From Hydrolagus colliei (Eukaryota), in NCBI GenBank assembly GCA_035084275.1, contig CM068752.1:2914001-2978000 (forward strand): a stretch of 64,000 nt of DNA. Direction: 5' to 3'. A program made the position numbers and the translations under genes. Numbering within the stretch: the stretch's first letter is position 1; each line of letters begins with the position of its first letter. The notes beneath the pieces were generated by a model. The model worked only from the letters and a program-made list of their open reading frames with translations, was not told the DNA's origin and did not search any database. Positions 32,675-50,214 of the stretch are shown piece by piece.

Positions 32675-32793
32675 TCACATGGACTGTGTGGTAAAGTTGT
32701 CTCCTCGGTTTCTTATGTACAAGACATCTAGGTACTCTTCATCCATGGGGTCTTCCAACACATAAGGCATTTCTCCTCCTTCCTCTTCAAATT
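32675..32793 (-). CDS. TRIM probable terminal exon
   Basis: ccttttcttgtcgattcag|EFEEEGGEMPYVLEDPMDEEYLDVLYIRNRGDNFTTQSM-stop; phase 1; minus-strand AATAAA at 32427-32432. Confidence 0.55.
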
Positions 32794-35700
32794 CTGAATC
32801 GACAAGAAAAGGTTTGAGTAACTCCAAAGAAACTCTTCGACTCTTCACTTTGATCTTAAAATGACCGAAGGCACAAGGTACATTTACTGATGTCGAACGC
32901 TTTTTAAAGAGAAACACAGAAACAAAACAACTGAAGAGGCCATTGAGCCCATCGTGTCTATGCGCTGGAACTTGATTTTCTAGGTCACACCATTGTTTGA
33001 GCTCACTGTCCAATTCGTATCGCTTTCGATGAATCTGTGTGTGTGTATATGGGGGATATGGGGGATATGTATTGAGGGATATGGGGAGAAAGTGGGAAAT
33101 TGGAATTGAAAATATTAGTAAAGGCACAGATCAGCCATGATCTAATTAAATGGCAGAGCAGCAGCAACAACAACAACAAAATTACATTTATAGAGCGCCT
33201 TTCACATCAGGAGGATGTCTCAAGGTTTACGGGGAAGACTCGAAGGGCTGAACGACTCACTCTTGTTCCTATGTTCCTATTGTGTTCTGTAGAACTGTAT
33301 CCCACAGTCCCTCTGCCTCCCCCCCTCCCCCCACTCCCATGCCTCCTTCAAGACACACCTCAAGACCCTCGTCTTCGACCGTGCCTTTGGTCACCCTCCT
33401 ACGCCTCCCTTCCCCTGCCCTCCAACCCTGCTGATCCCAACCACTAGCGCGGGTGCAGATCCCTAACTGTCCAGCTCCTTGGGACATCCTCTTGACGTGA
33501 AAAGCACAGTATAAATGTAATTTTTTGTGGCTATTAATCGACCAATTCACTATAAACACCCAAAGATGCCAGTAGAAAAGGCCTTTTCTGGGGATTACGC
33601 ATTTTTACCACAATACCTGCATAGTAAACAGGGGTATCCAGAGTGGAGATGCTGGATGTGCTGTCTTCACACCTCCTGTGGAAGTAATCAAAACCTGGTT
33701 ACTATTAAGCCTGTAAATGACAGTCACATTACACAAGCCTCAATATCTTGAACAGCATTGAACTGACTCGCAAACTTGCAACTTGAGGCAACACATTTGG
33801 AGTGTAGCTCCAGTGGTTAGAGCACTCGCCTCACGAGCGAAATACACTGGGTTCGATTCCCTGTGGGGCGATATCTTGGGAAAATTTCCTGACTCCACAT
33901 GCCTGATAATAATAATCTCTCAAGAAAAAAAAACAATAACGGAATTGATCAATTCAAATCCGCGACTGTTTGTGGGACATGGCTGTACGCAATTGGCTGC
34001 TTGCTACATTTCGCCCACAAATATACAGACTCAAATAGACAGAAAAAGTGCTATATCAAATGCAACGATTATTATTATATTATTATTATTAGTTGCTTCC
34101 CAAAGCACACAGTTACCACACTTTACTGAGCATCAAAGTGAATTGTTACTGTGAACTACAGTAACATCACGCTCACTATTTATTGCTGCTTTTACAAAGC
34201 CTCTCGGCCCAGATATGCACTAATTGTCAGGGCAGTTTCAACAGGTTGGTTTTCAGTTTTACTTACAAGTTTTCGGTCAAATTGTCCTCATCATCCTCAT
34301 CTTCCAGTGGAAATCTCTGGAGCATCACGTCATCTCTGGACTTAGCTTTCACAAAAAGATGTTTCAAAAAGTTCATGTAAAACCTCTTAAAATGGTCATC
34401 AGGCTAAAGCGCACAAGAGCTCTAATCCTTTTTTTTCCCAAAAGCTTAAACATCACATTAAAAAAACGCAGAGATTTGAAACGGTCTGACGTTTGCAATT
34501 TGAGTCAATACATTTGGAGTCCTGTAGCTCCAGTGGTTAGAGCACTCGCCTCGCAAGCAAGAGACCTGGGTTTGAATCCCAGCAGGGCGAAACCTTGTGT
34601 AAAAAATTTCCTTACTCCACACACCTGCTAACAATCAATCCCTCAAGAAAAAAAAACAACAATGAAATTGATCACTTCAATCCGCGACTGTTTGTGGGAA
34701 AACTGCTGTGCGCAATTGGCCTGCTGCCTTTCTCCCACAAATATACGGACACAAATAGCTGATATTTAAGAGCGCGAGAGAGCACAGAGCGACAAGTGGG
34801 TCATGTCACAACCTTCAAGCTCTGCCCGATTTCACTGACCAGCCCATAAATATCAGACAATCCCCGCTTTAAAGTATATCATGTGTAGTCCTTTGAGACA
34901 TCGCAACGACGTGATAAGGCACTACTTTATTATCAGATGCAAGGATTGCTATTATTAATTAGCCTACATCTCCCAGGGAAAGTATTATATACAGTAGTTC
35001 CCCTAAAGGCAACAACACCAACAACAACAACAATCTTTTACATTTGTATAGCGCCTTTCACGTCGGGAGGACGTCAAACAAAAACGCCACAGTGTAAATC
35101 TCTCCCCACATTGCCATGATTGATCCACAGACTCCTCTCTATCTCTTATGGTTTTTACATACACTCTCTCTCCCTTTCCCTAACGCTGCCTCTCTTTCTT
35201 CCTCTCTCTGCCCAGTGTCAGACGATTTTGAGTTTGATTCCTGTCTGGCCCCGTGCACGATTTGAAGCAGATACTCTCATCCAATCCTTTTGCTGAAGGA
35301 GTCAGCCCCAACTCGATGTTTATAAGTCTAACTCTGGCATCTGGCCGTAAATATTATTCTCACGGAGACGTTTAGCCTCAAGATCCTCTCTCTCATCTTC
35401 AAACCCCTTCATGCCCTCGCACCTCCCAATCATCCTGACTTGCTTACGCCCATTCCACTATCTGCTGCCTCCGCTCAGCTGGCTCAGTTTGTCCGTGGCC
35501 CACCCCCACTGCACTTCACCATCAGTGGCCGTGCTTTCAGTCACTCTACCCCCAAAGCTCTGGAAGGCTATCTCCCAATCCCTCTGCCTTGCCCCCTCCA
35601 TCCCCACTTTCGAATCCTGCCTAAAGGACCTTCCTTTCATGGTTGTGCTGTACGTATAGTCACTTCGCCCATTCTCTCACCACCCCCCCGGCTCAGACTC

Positions 35701-38700
35701 CGCCACAGACAAAAAAAACACTACCCAGTGTGAAAAAAAAAAGGGGGTGGGAGGGGGGGGCGGGGGGGGTGACGCTACATAAATGCAAGTTGTTGTTGTC
35801 CAGTGAAATCACAAGACGAGGAAAGCGAATCGGTTGAGAGAAGTCACTTTTAATAAATCTAGAGGAGTTATATTTTAGAGGGGATTAACCTGGAAAAGTG
35901 ACGGCTTTCCCACACAGCGGCCACGTGCTGCTCCTGGGAAGTCTGGCCTCTGCGTCGGCCGCCGCCTGCCACTGGACGCCGCGCACAGCGGCGCAGCCGG
36001 CGGAGACATTGCTCACGTTGACGTCTTCCAAACTCAAGGAAGGCCGACGCTTCGGGTGAGAGGGCCCCCCGCCGGCCGCCGCTGGTTTCCTCTCCCGCGC
36101 CGTCTCCCTCGGGGCCTCGGCCGCCTCCGCCCTCGTCGGGCTCAGTTTGCCGAGGAACTCGGCGGAGTCGGAGGCACTCCGGACGCCCGGCTCCCGGGAG
36201 GAGAGGCTCGCCATCAGCCCGATGTCCTTCCTGATCTGGGACAAGCCTTTGTGCACCGAGGAGTGGACCCCCTGGAGGTTGGCGTCGATCTGGTTGAGGC
36301 CGGTGTGGATGGTGTCCCATATGTTGGACATCCCGATGTGGAGAGCGTCCTGGATCTCGATCAGGCCGTTCTGCAGGGCGTTCAGGTGATCGGCCATTCC
36401 GTTCTGCAGGGAGTCCTGCATGTCCGCGAACATGCCGGACTGCATGTCCGTCAGGTCGGACTGCACATCGCCGCGCATGTTGGCCATGTGCCCCCCGTGC
36501 ACGGTGGTCTGCATGTCTCCCATGGCCGCCTGCAGGTCGGCGCTCTCTGCGTTTTTGCCCTCCTGCAACCTCAGGAAGAAGGTCTGGAAATTCAGGTCGA
36601 AGACCTCCTGAGGAGCCACGGACGACATGAGCTGCATCTGGTGAAGTTTGTGCTGCTTCGCGGAGGGTCTGGCCATCACCTCTTCCATCAGTTCCACCAC
36701 CACCGTCTGCTGAGAGGTGCTGAGCTGTGTTGGCGGCTCCTCCGATGACAGTATCCAGGTTGCCGTTTGATCACAAGGACAGTTTATCTTGGTGCTGGAG
36801 TCTGGCCTCTGGACCAACCAGGGTTCTGGCACATCTGTACAGATAAAAAGAAACAACTATGAAGCTATCAACTCAGCCAGCCGGGGCTCCGTCTTAACGT
36901 AGATGCCATCGGTTGGTTAGGGGAGAGAGAGTGTGGGTGGGATGGGTGGGGAGAACCAAGAATGGAAGCGTAGCTGCTTAGAGTACCAGGAGGAATAAAA
37001 CAAGGCTGAATGATTCAATGCTGCTGCGTTGAGGCACCGGTGATGCAGGCAGCCAATGTTTTGCAAGGAGACTTGTGAAGGCAGACAGTGGAGGTATGAC
37101 TAGATTCACTTTGAAACCGTGGAGGAAATCAGTCCGGTTGAGTGGAGGGCAGCGACATAATCACTGGAGTTTCTTGTTGTTCACTAAGTCGAGATGAAGA
37201 GACTGGGGGTCACTGCGTTGCCATATTGTAGGTGATGAGACAGAAGTTTGAAGTCTCGACTGGCTTTTCTTTGGTGGCGTTAAAGATCCAATGAGAAAAG
37301 AAACGTCTCTGCAGTTGTCCAGATAAATTGTCATTCATTTCACGGCTGTATGTAGGATATTGTAGCAAGTACATGGACGGATGGATGCCTCCATTCGCCT
37401 ACCGAAAACAGTCACTGCACTTGGCAGCAATTACCTCTGAAGTGTTTAAGTGACATTTGGACCTTACAGGCACGATATCAAATGCAAGTAGCAGGGGTGG
37501 TGGTGGGGGGGGAAAGTGGCACAAAAAAGTATTGTATGTACACACGATCTCTCGTGTGGTTTCAAAACTGTGATTAGTTTGAGAAAATGGTACTGCGTAT
37601 TACTTTCAAAAGATTTCTGGTGTGAGAGAGACCAGCGTGCGATAGATACATACCAGAAAGTCCGGTTCTGAGCTGATGTTCTTTTGTCAGTTGCTTAGAC
37701 CAGGTTTTGTGGCTTCCTTGTTGTAAAATGCGGCATTTTTTTTATATCCCGTTTTCCCTTCTGTTTTTCCTTTGCGTCTGTACTAGCTTCATAGTGGAAT
37801 ATTTGCTGGCGTCTGCGGCCCAGAACCCAGTGTCTGTGCCAAGTAGCGCTTAATGGCCCGTTACCCGAGATGTCAAATTGGCTGCCGCTTTCGCCCCGGG
37901 ACACGCGCACAAAGTCACTCCACCTTGCACTGTGTCCCGTCCTGCGAAGCTCTTTGAGACGTCCTCCCGGCGTGAAGGGCGCGGGGTCGAATGATAAGGA
38001 TTATACCCTCAGAGGTGATGAATTGACCAAGTGTCAGAGCCAAGTGGTTCAGTTTGAGAATCAGTTTTCATCTCCTGTGGAGTTCGGAGTGCCTTTGCGA
38101 CCTGAAGTGTGCTGCACAAGTCTAACTTGCTGTCAGCGTTGAGCTTCTTCAGGCATTTTCCATCCTTTCTTACCATGGGGACCTCACACTACAATCTTTG
38201 CGATGAGGCCATCCACATTAGAAAAGCCAGGTGTCTGCTTGGCGGGCTTTATAATAATATTGAATGATAATAATACTGTAATAAAAATAATCCTTGCATT
38301 TGATGTAGCGCCTTATCACGTCTTGGAGATGTCTCAAAGGGCTTCAGAGAATGTACTGTAAAGTGCAGTGACTGGATATTCTATCACTGGGTTATTAGTC
38401 TGTCGGTAGCAGAAGGGGAGAGCTGAAGAGAGGGACAGATAGGAGCCTCTACGATCCCCAGCCAGTCTTCACACTGCCTGGGTAGAGATCTTTCCCTGAC
38501 GCACTTCAATTCCAAACAGTCCCCCCAAAATCCCCGTTTAGGCCTCGCAATTCAAACATAATGAGCACCAAAACCAACAAGCTGTGGTTCACAATATCTT
38601 GCAGAACAATCTATAATTGTTAAAGTATGCAGAGCTCAAAGATATATAAACTCTATATATTTTTTAAATGAACTGTAGGAATAATTCAAGTATGTGTAAA

Positions 38701-41700
38701 TACCTTTGCAAAATACAGAAGAATATGGATTCCTTATTATGTCTCCATTTCCTATGGATCTCCTGTGGTGAGTAATCAGAAGTGCAGTTAATAATCGAGG
38801 TGTAGAGACATATGCTGACATTCTAATAGTTGCAGATGGTAACATTTTAAATCTACATTATAAATCTACACGATAATTGGCCAAATTACATTTTTAGAAA
38901 ACTGCGGTTTTCGTACGTGAATATAGGTGTGTGTGCATTTCTGTGTGCAGAACAGTAAAAGCCCGCTGATCCGTGACCCGATCAACCATAACTTCCGTAT
39001 AACCGGCACTTCAAAAAAGGTCCGCATTCGATTAACCGGAATGTATCTGGAAAAATGCTTTTTTTGGGGGTGTTTTTCAGCCGAATGTCCAGCCCACACT
39101 TTAATTGGCCAGGTCTCGAGGGTGCCGGATAAATGGCTTTTATGTATGCAGACCAGTATGCGTGCGGCTCTGTGCAGTATGGGTGTTTGTGCACGTGTGT
39201 GTGTGCATGCTTGTGTTTGTGTGTGTGTGCCTATGTGTCTGTGCATTTCCAGGCGTGTGTGCAGTACATATGTACAGTCCTATCCATCTGGCCTCCTTAA
39301 GTCTCGCCTCGGCAACTCCTAATCCCCCCATTCCCTCCGCGCCCCTCCATCCTCAGCTCGGGTCCGAAGCAGTTACTGTCCAGTGACTTGGGACATCCTC
39401 CTGATGTGAAAGGCGCTATACAAGTGTAATTTTGTTGTTGTTGTTGTTGTTGCGTGTGTGTCTATGGATGTGCCTATGTTTCCATGTACTACTAAGTGTG
39501 CAGACCAATGAGTGTGTGTGTGTGTGCACACACGCATGTTGAACATCATGTACACAGCTATTTTGGATCAATATGTGCCTGTCTACCTTCGCCTGACTTA
39601 GAATATTAGATTCCGAAATTGCTGAGTTCTCTACACACAGACACGGTGGAATCACAGAGCTTCTCTCCCTGATGTACTTACATTGTATCAGATACATTTT
39701 CCTCTTCGGTCTCTTCTTCCATTCCAAACCTTTCCTCCACTCCTTCATTATTCGACTGAACTTTAAAAAACAGGATAGAGTGACTTTAAGCAGGAGTCTG
39801 CCTCAACATTCTGTATGAAGTTTAAAATAACAGGGCAATTATACTTTCAGTGTTACTTGATCACATTTCATTTTACTGCAGTGAGATAGTTAGTGTTCCT
39901 GAAAGCCAGGACTTTAATTGCTGTGCATTTTAAAGTGCAAAGTATACCACTGAAACAATGATCGTCCAATTTTTCTTGGGGGGTAATAATCCCGTCAACG
40001 AAAATATAATTTGGCCACTCAATCCACCACCTTCTCATTTATCTCTCGTTCCTTTTCTCAGCAAACCAAGCACGCACAGGAGGTATTTTCCAAGTACAGT
40101 ATATGTTACCATTCCTCATTAAAAATGATTTCCAGTTACTCTGCTTTGTCTGCAAGGCTTATGTTTGCTCTGGGCCTTATTGTAACATACTGCACATCCA
40201 TGCAGAATGTTCTACTTTACTTCTGCCTTGAATGAGTCAATCTATTGACAATAACTTTGGGTTATTCAAGTATAAAACATTATTTATTGATGAATGCCCG
40301 GGGTATAAGGTCAGTCAACGCCTATAGCACCTGCCAAGTTCCAACCTCACAACTGGAATTTCTATCCAATAGTCTGCCATAATCCAATTTACAACTCTAT
40401 CTTGGAATCCAAACATTTTCACTTTGATGCCGTTAAAAAAAAATACACAGTCAATTCACTCAACGGTATAGAGTGAATTGGAAATCATGATAAGGCGTGA
40501 CATCAAAATGCAAGCGTTGCATTATTAGTATGGATTTTCTGATAGCTTTCATCCAAGATGTTTCTCAACATCAGCACATACTGTAGCTGTAATTTACACC
40601 ACTGTACTCCAACTCTTATCTGCTATTATCGCTTTTCCTAGATACCAAGTGTGTTAACTTGGCAACTTTGATCTCAGGTAATATGATTTGGATTTGGGCA
40701 GCACTTTGAGACATCTGGAAGATGTGTGAAGGCGCTATAATCAAAGGCAAGAATTGTTCATTACCAGTCGTAATCAAAGCTGCGTCACATACCAGGGTGG
40801 TCAAAAATCAGCGTGTTTAGTGTTTCAAAGATTCGCTTTGTTTCCTGTTTGATGTTGGATATCGTTGTTTCGTCCAACTTCTTCCAGGACACTTTTAGTT
40901 TTTCTACCTCGGTGTTGTTGTTGGAAATCCTGAAAAAGTGGTCACAGAGAGAAAAAATATCCAATCAAAATTTAAACCTGGTTATTCTTGTTACACCTTG
41001 TTAACCATATCAGGTGAAAGCTTTGACTTCAATCTGTACATTTGCCGCCGAGAATGGCAGTCTAACGACTTTTACAAACATTTAATGTTTGGCTTATTTA
41101 CACACACATACACATACACACGCACGCGCGAAAAACAGGTCAATAATCTTGATGTGGGTTACCTTTCATAAGTGGATTTGAAGTCCTAAAATGAGAACAG
41201 AATGACATTTTCAATGTGGCTAGGACCCATGTAATAAATATATTTAGCTTTCGTGTCGCATGTTATAATGCACGTCTTTTACGGTCGCATGTAAAAATGC
41301 ATTTGTTTTTCACATGAACAACAACAAATTACACGTGTACAGTACCTTTCACGTCAGGAGGAAGTCCCAAGGCACTGTACGGTCAGGGATCTGCAGTGCT
41401 GGTGGCTGGGATCAGGAAGGATCAAGGGTGGGGAGGACAGGAGTAGGAGGATGACCAAAGGCATGGTGGAAGAGGAAGGTCTTAAGTCAGCTTTTGAAGG
41501 AGCCAAGGGAGGGGGCGAGGCGGAGGGACTGCGGGGCAGAGAATGGGGGCAGAGAGTCTGAAGGCCCGTCTGCCAATGGTACAGCACATCAGAATATAAC
41601 AACAACTAAATTATATTTGCATAGGACTTCACGTTGGGCGGATGTCCCAAAGCACTGGACAATCAATGTTTCAGAACTGAGCTGGGGTCAGGGTGGGTGG

Positions 41701-44435
41701 AGGGTGGGTAGGGTAGTGGGGTGACCAAAACATGGATGAAGAGGAGGGTCTTGAGACGGGTCTAAAAGGAAGCAAGGGAGGGGGCAAGGTAGAGGAGGGA
41801 CTGTAGGCTGGAGTTCCAGAGGGCGGGGGCAGTGAGGCTGAAAACCTGCCCACAAATACTGGGAGCGGGCGAGGCAGGGGGAATAAACCAGGCCGGAGCC
41901 CACTGAGCAGAGGTAGTGAGCAGGTTGATACAGGGTTTGTAGGTTCTAGGGGCAGGGTGGATCAAGGCCACGAAGAGCTCTGAAGGTGATTCCAAGATCT
42001 TGAAGTGTATCCTCTGAGCAATGGCAAGTCAGTGAAGCCAATTTTTTTCAAAAATCCTCATGTCTGGATGAGAATTATATCATATTGATTATTAATTAGA
42101 TTGAATATTATAAATTAGATGCTAATTAATTCATTGGACGAGCATTCACAGTGGTTACAGGTTAACTTGTTATCACCTAATCGCAGTGGCCTTTCGAGTT
42201 TGCTTTACCTTAATAAAGAACAGCGGATCTTTCTGATTTCTCAAATCCTGCACCTCCTGAATGAGGTGTGTGATTACTTCCCGTTTGATCTCCAGTTCCT
42301 GTATCTTCTTCAACACCTTCGAAAGGTTCAGGTTCTTCTCTGAAATCACCATGTCCAGGATTTGTTTCTCTTGTTTCGTCAGCAACATCCTAATTTCCTG
42401 AAACAGATCTGAAATCTGCTTCCTCAAGGTCGCGCTGTCTTTCTGCAACGAGAGAGAAAAACTAGTCTAGAACGTTTCTCCCACACGTAATTCAAAATGC
42501 ACGCACATACACAAAATAGTCCAGCACCAAATGATCATTATAGGAACTATGGCATTTGCAGATTTTGGGGATATCTGTTGATATGATATTGTGGAGTCCT
42601 GTTTTAGAACACTCACCTTACAAGCGTGAGACCTGTGTTCGAATCTAGGCAGGTCAGGGTGAAACCTTGTGCAAGTTTCCTTACCCCCCACACACACACA
42701 CACACGCCTAATAATAATCCCTCCATAAAAAGAACAATAATAAAAAATTGGTCATTTCAATCCACGACTGTTTGTGCGACACTGCTGTGTGCAATTGGCT
42801 GCCGCGTTTCGCCCACAAATATACAGTCAATTCACTTTACACAGTATATTCTGTGAAGCGCTTTGAGACGTCTAGAAGAAGTGGAAAGCGCTATATCAAA
42901 CGCAAGGATTATTATTATATTACAGGGAACTATGCCTAACCAAACCCAACACAAAAAAGGTCATATATTGTTCCCCTAACATTTACTACCATGACTTTAA
43001 CAGGATGTGGAGGCCGGTAGCTCAGCGGGTGGGTCACTTGCCTCACAAGCGAGAGACCCTGGGTTTGTTTCCTGGCGGGGCAAAACATTGGGCAAGTTTC
43101 CTTACTCCACCATTCCAGGTGTTTCAGCTAGACTAGATGTGACAGCCGTGTCAGGGTTTCAAAAAAAAACACGTGAGCATACTCAATTAATACAGAAGCT
43201 GTTCATTAAATTACCTTTAAGTTCATTTCAGTTCCTTGCAGTTCTTTCGTTGCTTCTTCCAAAGACGCCCTGGAGCTCTGCAGTTTATCCAGCTTCTCAG
43301 AAAGGCTGGCCTGTCGAAATCAGTCCAAATTATGGGTTACCCCTCACTCCACCTGGGACACCGCTGCTGATCGCAATCGGCCGCCTCGTTTCACCCACAA
43401 GACACACAGTCGACCCACTTTACAACATATCCTGTGAAAGTGCTTTGCAAAGTCTCATCGACATGATCAGGCGACAACAGCAACAAAAGTACATTTTGTA
43501 TAGCGCCTTTCATGTCAGGAGGACGTCCCAAGGCGCTGGACAGTTACTGCAGGCACAACGTCAAACGCAAGGATTGTTATTAGTGTTAATATTATTATTA
43601 TTTTATTCGTTTTATTTATTATTATTATTTTTCCAGAGGCTTCAGCAGCGCACTAAAACGAAACTGATGTGAACTCGCTTGCAAATACGCGCACTCGATC
43701 ACACCCTTTCGCAGTGTATGGCTTGAGGCGCTTCGAGACGCCTTGACGACTGGCTTAAGCAAGGCTCTGCATCAAACACGAGGATTATCATTACCATCGT
43801 CCTCAACGCCGTGATGATTGACGTTTTACAATTCAGTGCAGTTCGGGTTTGTTCCCCCTTACCTTGGTCTCGTTGTGTATATCCTTCAGAATGCGTATGT
43901 CGTGGTTCTTGTGAGGCCCGGCCACGTAGCAGGTCACGCAGATGCAGGAGTGATCGTCCAAGCAGTAGTACTCGATGAGCTTCTCGTGATCCGAGCACTT
44001 GCGGTCTTCCAGCGAGCTGGCCGGTTCGATCAGTACGTGGTTCTTCTGGGCGGCTTTCTCGGTGTGTTTCCTGAAGTGATGCTCGCACAGCGAGGCTTCG
44101 CAGTTCATGCACGTTTTCACCGCCGGGAAAGGATCATCCAAGCAGAAATCACACAGGATCTTGACTGGCTCCTCGTTCATTTGTGTGGCTTCAAACCGTT
44201 CGATGATGTTGCAGAGCTTGAGGTTCTTCTGCAGGACGGGCTTTTGGTTGTACTCGGCACGGCACTCCGGACACGAGTAGACTTGGACCGTGTCGCGTTT
44301 GTCCCAGTTCTTCTCGATACACTTGCGGCAGAAGTTGTGGCCGCAGGTCAGCGAGACCGGCTCCGTGTAGATGTTCCAACAAATTGAACAGTTTAACTCT
44401 TCTTTCAAATTACCAACAGCTGAAGTTGAAGCCAT
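32675..44435 (-). CDS. TRIM family E3 ligase (RING-Bbox1-Bbox2-coiled coil, TRIM25/finTRIM-like N-terminus) with an atypical non-B30.2 C-terminus; gene span, 11-exon model, about 800 aa
   Basis: Exons of 573, 96, 234, 23, 137, 79, 59, 945, 79, 59 and 119 nt splice in one open frame (2403 nt). The 96/234/23-nt exons are the classic TRIM coiled-coil pattern. The 3' exons rest on splice/phase logic only. Confidence 0.7.
33617..33675 (-). CDS. TRIM exon 10 (59 nt; module copy 2)
   Basis: tgattacttccacag|RCEDSTSSISTLDTPVYYA|gtattg; same length, phase and acceptor context as exon 7. Confidence 0.6.
34267..34345 (-). CDS. TRIM exon 9 (79 nt, acidic; module copy 2)
   Basis: ctttttgtgaaag|AKSRDDVMLQRFPLEDEDDEDNLTEN|gtaagt; same length and phase as exon 6 and alignable with it. 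Confidence 0.62.
35890..36834 (-). CDS. TRIM exon 8 (945 nt GC-rich cassette encoding 11-mer repeats); could alternatively read through to a stop at 35885
   Basis: Strong acceptor ttctttttatctgtacag; 315-codon open frame with strongly G/C-ending codons; donor CCAG|gttaat; phase 1 to 1. Confidence 0.72.
38704..38762 (-). CDS. TRIM exon 7 (59 nt; module copy 1)
   Basis: tgattactcaccacag|RSIGNGDIIRNPYSSVFCK|gtattt; phase 2 to 1. Confidence 0.62.
38953..39144. mobile_element. Possible pogo/Tigger-like MITE remnant
   Basis: Imperfect terminal inverted repeats cagtaaaagcccgctgatccg ... ccggataaatggcttttatg, followed by TA. Confidence 0.4.
39682..39760 (-). CDS. TRIM exon 6 (79 nt, acidic; module copy 1)
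   Basis: ttttttaaag|VQSNNEGVEERFGMEEETEEENVSDT|gtaagt; phase 1 to 2. Confidence 0.68.
40793..40929 (-). CDS. TRIM exon 5 (137 nt, linker)
   Basis: ttttcag|ISNNNTEVEKLKVSWKKLDETTISNIKQETKRIFETLNTLIFDHP|gtatgt; phase 2 to 1. Confidence 0.78.
41163..41185 (-). CDS. TRIM exon 4 (23 nt micro-exon)
   Basis: cattttag|DFKSTYER|gtaac; a 23-nt exon at this position is typical of TRIM genes. Confidence 0.8.
42209..42442 (-). CDS. TRIM exon 3 (234 nt, coiled coil)
   Basis: tgcag|KDSATLRKQISDLFQEIRMLL...KDPLFFIK|gtaaa. Confidence 0.9.
42592..42920 (+). mobile_element. DeuSINE copy in a TRIM intron
   Basis: Same head/core/tail consensus. Confidence 0.8.
43215..43310 (-). CDS. TRIM exon 2 (96 nt, coiled coil)
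   Basis: gacag|ASLSEKLDKLQSSRASLEEATKELQGTEMNLK|gtaat. Confidence 0.88.
43863..44435 (-). CDS. TRIM coding exon 1: RING + B-box1 + B-box2
   Basis: LKEELNCSICWNIYTEPVSLTCGHNFCRKCI...YSCPECR; CDFCLDDPFPAVKTCMNCEASLCEHH; CSDHEKLIEYYCLDDHSCICVTC..H..H; donor AAG|gtaag. An acceptor (cctcag) just upstream of the ATG implies a non-coding first exon. Confidence 0.93.
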
Positions 44436-48380: not shown

Positions 48381-50214
48381 GATCTCTATTAGAGCACTCA
48401 CTCATCATAGATCTCTATCACTTCTCACCAAAAGAACAGCAACACATTATGCCATCACACACAGTGGCAGCACCAAAGCAATGACATCACTGCTGCAGCC
48501 ACCAGCACGCCCGCCAAACACACAGTCGATTCACTACATAGTCTATTCTGTGAAGGGCTTTGAGACGTCTCAACGATGTGATGAGGCGCTGTATTCAAAT
48601 GCGGGGATTATTATTATCATTATCATTACATTACAGAGTCATCTGTCAGTAGAGAAGCAAGGTGGGACGATCTGGGAATTCCTTTGTGCAGCAACACCAG
48701 AATATAAATCATATGTTTGTATTCTAAATGCTCGAGACTGTGAATAGAGCTATAATCACCAGCCACGTTTATATCCAAACTCAAATGGGTTTTGCTGCGT
48801 GTGGAATGTCTTTCATGTAAATTGCCCACGAGGTTTGATCTGTGAACGTTTGTTTTCACTTTTTAATCAACTGTATATTTTGCAAGGAGCTCCCAGACAT
48901 TAATTAAATGTGAAAAGTGTACACGTGATTATCGTGTGGAATTATTAACAGCAAGGCACGGAAAGCAACAGAATGGCTCTAAAGGGAGCTTGTTTGATCC
49001 TAGATTAAAAATGCTGAATACAAAGTGAACACAATTCAGTGGGAATAGAGCCTGTGACTGGGAATACTCTTTGCATGAACACAAACATACCTGGATAAAA
49101 TTACAGGCAACCCCTCAGCTCGTCACTTTGAGACGTCGCGTTGACGTGAGAAGGCGCTATATCAAATACATGGATTATTATTATTTTATTATTGCAACAA
49201 TTCTTTTTCTTTTTAAGGTAAGTGAATCCTCAGCAAAGGCAGACCCAATCGGCTGGAAATTATTAATAATAATAAATATACTTGGTAAATGGAGTCGTGT
49301 AGCTCAGTGGTTATAGAGCACTCGCAAGACCAGAGGACCTAGGTTCGATTCCCTGGGCAGGTCGAAAAGTTGGGCAAATTTTGTTTCTTATTTCCTTACT
49401 TTACACTTCACTGTAACGGGCTGAGTGGCATCTGATTACCTAGCAGTATGTAGGAAACTGGCTGTTGTTTTTCCAGGGATAACAATCCCATTAAAATAAA
49501 TATATAATGCTGTATATAATATTAATTTGGTCACTCAATAAATAATACTGTATATAATATTAATTTGGTCACTCAATCCACACCTGTTTGTGGGACACTG
49601 CTGTGCGCAATTGGCTGCAGCGTTTCACTCACATATATATATCTACAGTCAATTCACTTTACTGTGAAGCGCTTTGAGATGCCTGGAAGACGAGGCGCTA
49701 TATCAAATGCAAGGATTATTTTATTACTGTATTACTTTCCAAAACAGTGCCTCTAGGGTGACTGAGTGACGTGCACTGAACAGGCTGTACAGCAGAGGGC
49801 AGTCATGCTCTATCTGACAACATTTAATCCAAACTCTTTACCTGGCAGAGATTGTTCAAAATGACAGTAAATTCAAAGCACATATCCACAGTCTGTGTTG
49901 CACTTTCAAGGGAAAAAAAAGTCTAACTTATTGTAGCAATCACTGAAGCCTTGAGGTATTAAGGCAAAAAAAAATCTGAGCTTTAGATCTCATTGATAGT
50001 GCTGGTCACTGATTAGAATGTGCTCAATGCTATAATGCTATCAGGAGATTAGAAGCTCCTGATTTCAAACAGCAAATTTTCAGAGGGATTGAGATCAATG
50101 AGCTACAGAGAGAGAGAAAAAAGACACTTGGATTATACTCTTTCGCAAAACAAAAGTGAAAGCGCAACCAATTTAAAGCTGTAAGCAAAGGAGATAAGAT
50201 AGGAGTTGCAATAT

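What the first reader, a model, noticed from the sequence alone, without database searches (positions are those of the whole stretch)
36197..36538. 11-residue amphipathic repeat array inside the TRIM cassette exon
Seen: consecutive 11-mers SLQNGMADHLN / ALQNGLIEIQD / ALHIGMSNIWD / TIHTGLNQIDA, plus DLQAAMGDMQT, DVQSDLTDMQS and SVHKGLSQIRK. Hydrophobic residues fall at positions 2, 6 and usually 9, with Gly at position 5 in most units. The DNA motif gttctgcagg recurs 33 nt apart (36368, 36401). Known: 11-mer periodicity defines hendecad coiled coils and the lipid-binding helices of perilipins, apolipoproteins and synucleins. Inference: this segment may target the E3 ligase to lipid droplets or membranes, or form a second oligomerisation stalk.
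Basis: partly seen in the sequence, partly recalled or inferred. Interest (0 to 1): 0.7.

Follow-up and report, generated by a model that had tools for sequence, protein, structure and literature searches.

The report
Shuffled helix module in chimaera TRIM
In a chimaera-type fish, a ubiquitin-ligase (TRIM) gene lacks its usual recognition domain and carries a conserved 11-residue-repeat helix instead; the same unnamed module also ends a CD47-like membrane protein of sharks and rays and a likely secreted TNF-receptor-like protein, which suggests it is a portable clustering part, predicted but untested, rather than a lipid-droplet anchor.

Summary
The repeat is real: hydrophobic period 3.64, matched by 0 of 20,000 shuffles. 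It lies in exon 8 of an intact 11-exon, 800-codon TRIM25-like gene with no PRY/SPRY domain, the orthologue of Callorhinchus milii LOC103186970. The repeat core is 72/77 identical to C. milii, against 55/107 for the sequence behind it. AlphaFold2 models one long helix.

New here: the same ~140-residue module ends an Ig+5TM (CD47-like) protein of sharks and rays (35-41% identity; unit-order control 0 of 2000). It also forms the last exon of a TNFR-like gene without a transmembrane segment in this genome (HMM E=2.9e-16; control 1 of 2000). Shark and skate TRIMs and one ray Ig+5TM have annotated isoforms with and without it.

Best reading (0.55): a self-associating hendecad coiled coil that clusters its carrier; binding was not measured. 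Lipid binding stays open (0.22): composition is perilipin-like, but the helix is acidic and one copy is probably secreted. No Pfam family, solved structure or paper was found, and the scan's notes showed no earlier report of it.

The parts
43863..44435 (-). Exon 1 (coding): RING, B-box 1, B-box 2
   Evidence: Pfam RING E=1.8e-11, ANCHR-like B-box, zf-B_box; tblastn with C. milii protein; boundaries
43215..43310 (-). Exon 2, 96 nt, TRIM coiled coil
42209..42442 (-). Exon 3, 234 nt, TRIM coiled coil
   Evidence: Pfam TRIM_CC E=0.0019, below cut-off
41163..41185 (-). Exon 4, 23 nt
40793..40929 (-). Exon 5, 137 nt, linker helix after the coiled coil
39682..39760 (-). Exon 6, 79 nt, acidic; duplicate of exon 9
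   Evidence: 46/79 nt identical to exon 9 without gaps, 0 of 10,000 shuffles
38704..38762 (-). Exon 7, 59 nt; likely duplicate of exon 10
   Evidence: 26/59 nt identical, 9 of 10,000 shuffles
35890..36834 (-). Exon 8, 945 nt, phase 1-1, AG/GT; carries the module
   Evidence: single-copy depth about 41-49 in DNA run X1
36197..36628 (-). The shared module, 144 aa: N-terminal helix, hendecad core and C-terminal cap
   Evidence: alignments A1 and A3; AlphaFold2 helices 6-45 and 55-143
36218..36445 (-). Hendecad core plus cap (76 aa): four strict 11-mers, one offset 11-mer before them, a 7-residue unit with His, a last 11-mer
35849..35887 (-). In-frame TAA (35887-35885) just past the exon 8 donor, and ATTAAA at 35854: possible end of an isoform that stops in exon 8 (inferred)
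   Evidence: parallels the shark and skate X1 isoforms
34267..34345 (-). Exon 9, 79 nt, acidic tail
33617..33675 (-). Exon 10, 59 nt
32675..32793 (-). Exon 11 (coding part), conserved acidic C-terminus and stop
   Evidence: ATTAAA 32578 and AATAAA 32432 downstream

Best explanation
The segment is the core of a conserved, portable helical module that likely self-associates as a hendecad coiled coil, and in this TRIM it would cross-link ligase dimers into larger assemblies in place of the missing PRY/SPRY domain. Shown: the 11/3 periodicity, an intact and conserved reading frame, the absence of PRY/SPRY, and homologous copies at the C-terminus of an Ig+5TM protein and of a TNFR-like gene model with no transmembrane segment. 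Predicted: one continuous helix of about 89 residues with Leu/Ile/Met at a, e, h and Gly at d. Inferred: helices from two to four chains pack along this stripe, with Gly at d and small residues at k allowing close packing. TRIM25-type dimers hold their RINGs at opposite ends and need higher-order assembly to work, so a second association site would switch on or raise E3 activity. Alternative splicing in sharks and rays would switch between the clustering form and a form ending in the acidic tail. The same module would cluster the CD47-like receptor from the cytosol and make the soluble TNFR-like protein multivalent. The oligomer number is unknown.
For: Period 3.64, 0 of 20,000 shuffles. Over 12 aligned cores (84 cells per position; the last two units and part of the TNFR row are out of register): a 78/84 hydrophobic, d 52/84 small (49 Gly), e 61/84, h 61/84, k 44/84 small, g 41/84 acidic, no K/R at a, d, h or k. 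This matches the a/d/h hendecad pattern in PMC4239116 (passages). Core identity 72/77 to C. milii and 39/77, 38/77 to bamboo shark and skate, against 55/107, 16/107, 25/107 for the exon part behind it. The order of units matters: window against an Ig+5TM-only HMM 91.2 bits, 0 of 2000 unit-order shuffles reach it; TNFR exon against the module HMM 55.7 bits, 1 of 2000 unit-order and 0 of 2000 within-register shuffles. Polar residues (Q63, Q93, H122) are invariant in all 13 rows. AlphaFold2: single helix 55-143, block pLDDT 81-95 over residues 71-140. The TNFR-like model has a signal-type hydrophobic start, 17 Cys, 0 internal stops and no transmembrane segment, while the TRIM copy is cytosolic; a self-contained assembly function fits both compartments. 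TRIM25 needs higher-order assembly for RING dimerisation (PMC5076470, summary and passages).
Against: An 11/3 amphipathic stripe serves lipid binding equally well, and the composition is perilipin-like. A run of Gly at d lowers helix propensity in water, so the segment may be unfolded without a partner or lipid (own knowledge). No solved structure matches significantly, so no oligomer geometry can be borrowed. Isoforms and the TNFR-like gene rest on automated annotation or on my exon model, with no RNA seen. The TNFR link is weaker than the Ig+5TM link: 19-30% identity, a cap-only HMMER search gave E=3.8, and ungapped controls gave 18 to 813 of 20,000.
Confidence: 0.55

Rival explanations
1. 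The module is a lipid-binding 3-11 amphipathic helix, unfolded in solution, that folds on lipid droplets, membranes or lipoproteins and targets its carrier there.
For: Hydrophobic fraction 0.40, aromatic 0.027, charged 0.15, mean 11-mer moment 0.44, against Plin3 0.37/0.01/0.23/0.35 and Plin4 0.35/0.002/0.15/0.257 (PMC5889406 Table 1 passage; moments computed by different procedures). Its length of 75-89 residues exceeds the >66 needed by Plin4. Sub-threshold Apolipoprotein Pfam hits for two homologues, E=0.0081 and 0.00066, and non-significant ApoA-I rows at E>=0.69. In the Ig+5TM protein the module would hang next to a membrane.
Against: Net charge -5 in the window core and -3 to -6 in 10 of the 11 homologous cores printed. 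In Plin4, reversing +1 to -1 per 33-mer removed droplet targeting, although more hydrophobicity rescued it. My HeliQuest-type factor D is below 0.68 in 22 of 24 windows (formula and threshold recalled). Unit order and polar positions are conserved across carriers. One copy is probably secreted and would not meet lipid droplets.
Confidence: 0.22
2. The module is a docking helix that binds another protein (a substrate, an adaptor, or the TRIM's own coiled coil) and so replaces PRY/SPRY as the substrate-recruiting part.
For: It sits where PRY/SPRY sits in related TRIMs. TRIM coiled coils contain hendecads, and pairing through hendecad segments has been proposed for IE1 and PML (PMC4239116 passages). 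Invariant polar residues.
Against: One partner shared by a cytosolic ligase, a receptor tail and a secreted protein is hard to picture. No similarity between the module and this TRIM's exon 3 coiled coil (hhalign probability 0.1%).
Confidence: 0.17
3. The repeat is a low-complexity expansion with no specific function, and the matches between genes are convergence of amphipathic repeats.
For: Coiled-coil-like sequences give spurious HMM hits (Baculo_PEP_C, Phasin and others below cut-off). Two unrelated repeat proteins (P0010, P0011) were among the 8 hits. The TNFR copy sits on a long branch.
Against: Core conservation far above flanks. 35-41% identity to Ig+5TM over the 144 residues including non-repeat ends. 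Unit-order controls 0 and 1 of 2000. The cap profile ranks the TNFR cap at 53.1 against 25.3 for the next of 53,046 windows, the window's own cap aside. The 3 differences in the module in run X1 are all synonymous (small number).
Confidence: 0.06

Closest known systems
Callorhinchus milii LOC103186970 (XP_007904455) and elasmobranch orthologues (XP_043559715/XP_043559718, XP_055498998/XP_055499000 and others), auto-named TRIM8-like, TRIM25-like, TRIM42-like, MID2 or uncharacterized
   Same: Same gene: RBCC 350/354 identical to C. milii and 321-323/354 to skate and bamboo shark; same module and acidic tail.
   Different: Only automatic names; no paper found. The chimaera models join module and acidic tail; the shark and skate models carry one or the other.
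TRIM25 / TRIM16 / finTRIM group (RING, two B-boxes, coiled coil, PRY/SPRY)
   Same: Best solved relative is TRIM25, E=2.8e-36 over residues 12-330. Exon sizes 573/96/234 match the finTRIM layout of 555-594/96/234 (PMC2657112 passage). Loss and gain of C-terminal domains in fish TRIMs is known (PMC3137616 passages).
   Different: No PRY/SPRY. A second helical module and a duplicated acidic exon pair stand in its place. RBCC is about 91% conserved between chimaera and shark, which looks unlike the fast-evolving antiviral TRIM expansions.
Hendecad (11/3) coiled coils, e.g. TRIM coiled-coil centres and the cytomegalovirus IE1 stalk
   Same: a/d/e/h core pattern and period near 3.67 (PMC4786415 and PMC4239116 passages).
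   Different: Gly at most d positions; no sequence or fold match to any solved example; assembly not measured.
11-mer lipid-binding helices of perilipins, apolipoproteins and synucleins
   Same: 11-mer period, few aromatics, similar hydrophobic fraction and length.
   Different: Acidic and nearly without K/R; position-specific conservation with a fixed cap; no significant sequence match.
CD47 (Ig + five transmembrane helices) and TNFRSF14-like receptors, the other two carriers
   Same: Ig_3 plus five hydropathy peaks; Atlas CD47 clusters score 0.85-0.86, a lead only. TNFR_c6 hits at E=0.00043 and 0.0026, below cut-off.
   Different: Pfam's CD47 model did not hit, so orthology is not shown; the TNFRSF14 label is recalled. 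From my own knowledge, neither mammalian family carries such a module.

Membership tests
TRIM (RBCC) E3 ligases | RING, B-box(es), coiled coil in this order at the N-terminus | tested here: met
   Pfam; PDB; intact frame
Class IV TRIM (TRIM25/finTRIM type) | C-terminal PRY/SPRY (B30.2) domain | tested here: not met
   No PRY or SPRY hit in the 800-aa orthologue at E<=0.05; none of the six-frame ORFs read between exon 5 and the PDE6 gene looked like one (by eye)
Class IV TRIM (TRIM25/finTRIM type) | Exon layout about 570/96/234 nt for RBB and coiled coil | tested here: met
   573/96/234 against PMC2657112
Hendecad coiled coil | Hydrophobic period near 11/3 with a/d/e/h core | tested here: met
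Hendecad coiled coil | Continuous alpha-helix | tested here: met
   Predicted only: AlphaFold2 helix 55-143
Hendecad coiled coil | Knobs-into-holes association of two or more helices | tested here: inconclusive
   No usable oligomer model was obtained; see Tried and rejected
Perilipin/apolipoprotein/synuclein 11-mer lipid helices | 11-mer amphipathic helix of moderate hydrophobicity, over about 66 residues | tested here: met
Perilipin/apolipoprotein/synuclein 11-mer lipid helices | Basic residues flanking the hydrophobic face, net charge zero or positive | tested here: not met
   Net -5, 3 K/R in 76 residues, all at the end. The class A rule is recalled; the Plin4 charge result is
Perilipin/apolipoprotein/synuclein 11-mer lipid helices | Sequence homology to these families (Pfam cut-off, or a significant PDB hit) | tested here: not met
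   Best Apolipoprotein score 19.9 bits against a cut-off of 90; PDB E>=0.17
Perilipin/apolipoprotein/synuclein 11-mer lipid helices | Lipid-induced folding and binding | not testable with these tools
   needs CD, flotation and cell imaging
CD47 family (for the Ig+5TM carrier) | Pfam CD47 and V-set_CD47 domains | tested here: inconclusive
   No Pfam CD47 hit at E<=0.5; Atlas similarity 0.85-0.86

The most novel reading that the evidence does not exclude
Cartilaginous fishes evolved their own portable clustering domain and grafted it, as a terminal or optional exon, onto three unrelated immune-type protein families: a TRIM ligase that lost its PRY/SPRY sensor, a CD47-like receptor, and a TNF receptor that it turns into a secreted multivalent ligand trap. 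Splicing then toggles each protein between a clustered and an unclustered state.
Probability: 0.3. Interest if true: 0.75.

Novelty: new variant of a known kind. Interest (0 to 1): 0.52.

Why it matters
Hendecad helices and swapped TRIM C-termini are both known, so the repeat alone is modest. What is unusual is an unnamed module, present in both chimaeras and elasmobranchs and found in no other vertebrate in my searches, re-used by three unrelated immune-type genes in apparently different compartments. If it self-associates, it is a lineage-specific way to cluster a TRIM ligase without a ligand-binding domain, and a natural multimerised soluble TNF receptor. It also gives a clean test case for what separates a Gly-rich 11-mer that binds itself from one that binds lipid.

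Tried and rejected
Three-copy complex prediction of the module: verdict 'no answer', score 0.10 against a mark of 0.32, alignment not used, job unlike the calibration; not used as evidence either way.

AlphaFold2 of the 800-aa orthologue: mean pLDDT 34, uninformative. Foldseek of the single-helix model against the PDB: 0 matches. PDB sequence searches: 0 hits with the single sequence, 14 non-significant with the profile. Pfam on the exon: 4 sub-threshold helical families. ESM Atlas on the module: best 0.80 with low recognition, not used.

RNA evidence: no RNA holder listed. The one run, X1, covers introns and exons evenly and so behaves as DNA; it may be the same data set or a close relative.

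Origin from the TRIM's own exon 3 coiled coil: no similarity; one search was void because the alignment held full-length TRIMs. Multicopy mobile-element origin: the DNA has 1 match in the genome and protein searches give 2 loci; a third hit, L007, is a 33-bp minisatellite with stops. An ancient element origin is not excluded.

An internal donor AAC|GTGAGC at 36017 was considered as the exon end and rejected: it is phase 0, while the C. milii model and the next exon need the phase-1 donor at 35890. An ORF at 33130-32678 suggested an earlier start of the last exon; only its last 40 codons match the orthologue.

The chimaera Ig+5TM homologue on contig C38 (38-44% identity) shows no module in about 32 kb around it; it may be a paralogue. 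One search used an unrelated fragment and is void. The tree of 13 module rows has 7 of 10 inner branches open and cannot order the transfers.

Rows dropped: P0010 and P0011 (simple repeats) from the 8 hits; P0005 from the cap profile. P0023 and P0026 were listed but not read.

Literature: searches (listings) found no paper on this gene or module; the five LOC identifiers gave 0 papers. No supplementary files were examined; annotation tables in shark or chimaera genome papers could list these genes.

Full report
Setting. The window is G000:C19:2914001-2978000 of a 1.0-Gb genome. The flagged exon finds one longer relative among 3631 candidates, Callorhinchus milii LOC103186970, 73% identical over the whole query, so the animal is a chimaera close to C. 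milii. Six-frame translation shows an SLC26-type gene, a PDE6-type gene, the TRIM and a PGC-1-type gene (these names are recalled from the sequences, not from a call).

The observation. All quoted peptides and both copies of the DNA motif are there. For the 76-residue core the hydrophobic period peaks at 3.64; 0 of 20,000 shuffles reach the peak or the lag-11 self-similarity. DNA identity at lag 33 is only 48%. Four units are in strict register, followed by a 7-residue unit containing His and one more 11-mer.

The gene. With the C. milii protein as guide the window gives 11 coding exons, 800 codons, no internal stop and GT-AG at all 10 introns. It has a RING, two B-boxes and a coiled coil. TRIM25 is its best solved relative (searched with the bamboo shark orthologue), and its first three exons have the finTRIM sizes (PMC2657112, passages). 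No PRY/SPRY is found. Exon 8 (36834-35890) is 945 nt and phase 1-1. Conservation peaks on the repeat: 72/77 identical to C. milii, 39/77 to bamboo shark and 38/77 to skate, against 55/107, 16/107 and 25/107 for the exon part behind it. DNA run X1 covers the exon at single-copy depth; of its 5 differences in the exon, the 3 in the module are synonymous and the 2 before it change residues.

Isoforms. A search with the acidic tail found 3 elasmobranch orthologues among 58 candidates, and their clusters hold two annotated forms. The six short proteins I read (P0017, P0018, P0019, P0021, P0024, P0025) keep the start of exon 8, leave out the module and end in the acidic tail. The two long ones (P0020, P0022) include the module and stop inside the exon. 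This implies an internal donor in elasmobranchs. In the window no phase-1 donor with 4 or more of 7 consensus matches lies inside exon 8 before 35890; reading past that donor gives a stop at once and an ATTAAA at 35854. So the chimaera probably always includes the module when it uses the exon, with or without the tail. These are automated annotations and my inference; no RNA holder was listed for this species.

The module is shared. A search of 1.84 billion representatives gave 8 hits: two shark TRIM fragments, four proteins of sharks and a ray from a different family, and two unrelated simple repeats that I dropped. A profile search added two more of the second family (7 hits among 7993 scored; it missed P0004, so it is not exhaustive). 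That family has an Ig domain, five hydrophobic segments after the signal region, a Thr/Ser/Pro-rich linker and then the module; it resembles CD47 in layout and in Atlas features at 0.85-0.86, a lead only. Identity to the window module is 35-41% over 144 residues, and 0 of 2000 unit-order shuffles reach the observed 91.2 bits. In the ray Narcine one annotated isoform (P0013) ends without the module. The chimaera homologue found on C38 shows no module nearby.

A third carrier lies in the same genome. Three protein searches link the window to G000:C34 near 8,008,100. There four exons join into 350 codons with a signal-type hydrophobic start, 17 Cys, TNFR cysteine-rich repeats and the module, with no transmembrane segment; the first coding exon was not identified. 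Between its stop and the next gene, two hydrophobic frames passed my threshold; I read them as non-coding but did not test that. The module HMM scores this exon at E=2.9e-16 among 872 ORFs, and hhalign gives 97%. 0 of 2000 within-register and 1 of 2000 unit-order shuffles reach the score. Weaker results: ungapped controls gave 18, 65 and 813 of 20,000, and a cap-only HMMER search gave E=3.8, or 0.06 without composition correction, although an ungapped cap profile ranked it at 53.1 against 25.3 for the next of 53,046 windows. I rate homology as near certain for TRIM and Ig+5TM and as probable for the TNFR copy. The tree cannot order the transfers.

How it most likely works. AlphaFold2 gives one helix over residues 55-143, confident over 71-140. 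The stripe has large aliphatic residues at a, e, h, Gly at d, small residues at k and acids at g, the pattern of a hendecad coiled coil (PMC4786415 and PMC4239116, passages). TRIM25 dimers hold their RINGs 170 A apart and need higher-order assembly to work (PMC5076470, summary and passages). A second association site in place of PRY/SPRY would supply that assembly. The same property would cluster a receptor tail and make a soluble TNF receptor multivalent. Each of these steps is inference, and I put the whole at 0.55.

The lipid reading. Composition and moment are within the range of perilipin helices (PMC5889406, passages), so it cannot be dismissed. Against it: net charge -5 with 3 K/R in 76 residues, negative charge in 10 of 11 homologous cores, conserved unit order and polar residues, no significant homology to lipid-binding families, and a copy that is probably secreted. 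I give it 0.22, a partner-docking helix 0.17, and a functionless repeat 0.06.

Novelty. Hendecad helices are known, as are gain and loss of TRIM C-terminal domains in fish (PMC3137616, passages). A domain-shuffling survey of early vertebrates relies on Pfam domain pairs, and the passages I read do not mention this module (PMC11788884). No Pfam family reaches its cut-off on the module, no solved structure matches, and paper searches (listings) found nothing on the gene or module. The scan's own notes showed no earlier report. All credible homologues were from cartilaginous fishes, but the searches are not exhaustive. Verdict: real, an undescribed variant of a known kind, interest 0.52.

Noticed in passing
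window 39760-38704 and 34345-33617 (minus strand): Exons 6-7 and 9-10 have the same sizes (79 and 59 nt) and phases and are 46/79 and 26/59 identical: the acidic C-terminus grew by duplication of an exon pair on either side of exon 8.
   Followed up: partly
window 32793-32675 (minus strand): The last 40 residues form an acidic, Tyr-containing tail with no Pfam match, 92% identical to C. milii and strongly conserved in sharks and skate; possibly a binding motif of its own.
   Followed up: no
L003 8812-8914 and L002 77-1896 (G000:C34): TNFR-like gene model with cysteine-rich repeats, no transmembrane exon and the module as last exon; it lies between a TNFR-like gene with a transmembrane exon and a cyclin-L-type gene (names recalled).
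   Followed up: partly
L011-L015 (G000:C38:4520350-4552600): Cluster of Ig-domain genes including an Ig+5TM homologue without the module in the stretch examined.
   Followed up: partly
L007 1501-1710 (G000:C24): 33-bp minisatellite whose translation mimics the 11-residue repeat but has a stop in each unit.
   Followed up: no
window 49499-49577: 38-bp tandem duplication, 95% matches, the highest-scoring tandem repeat in the window.
   Followed up: no
window 36628-36197: Third-position GC is 0.92 in the module against 0.70-0.81 in the rest of exon 8 and 0.75 in exon 1.
   Followed up: no
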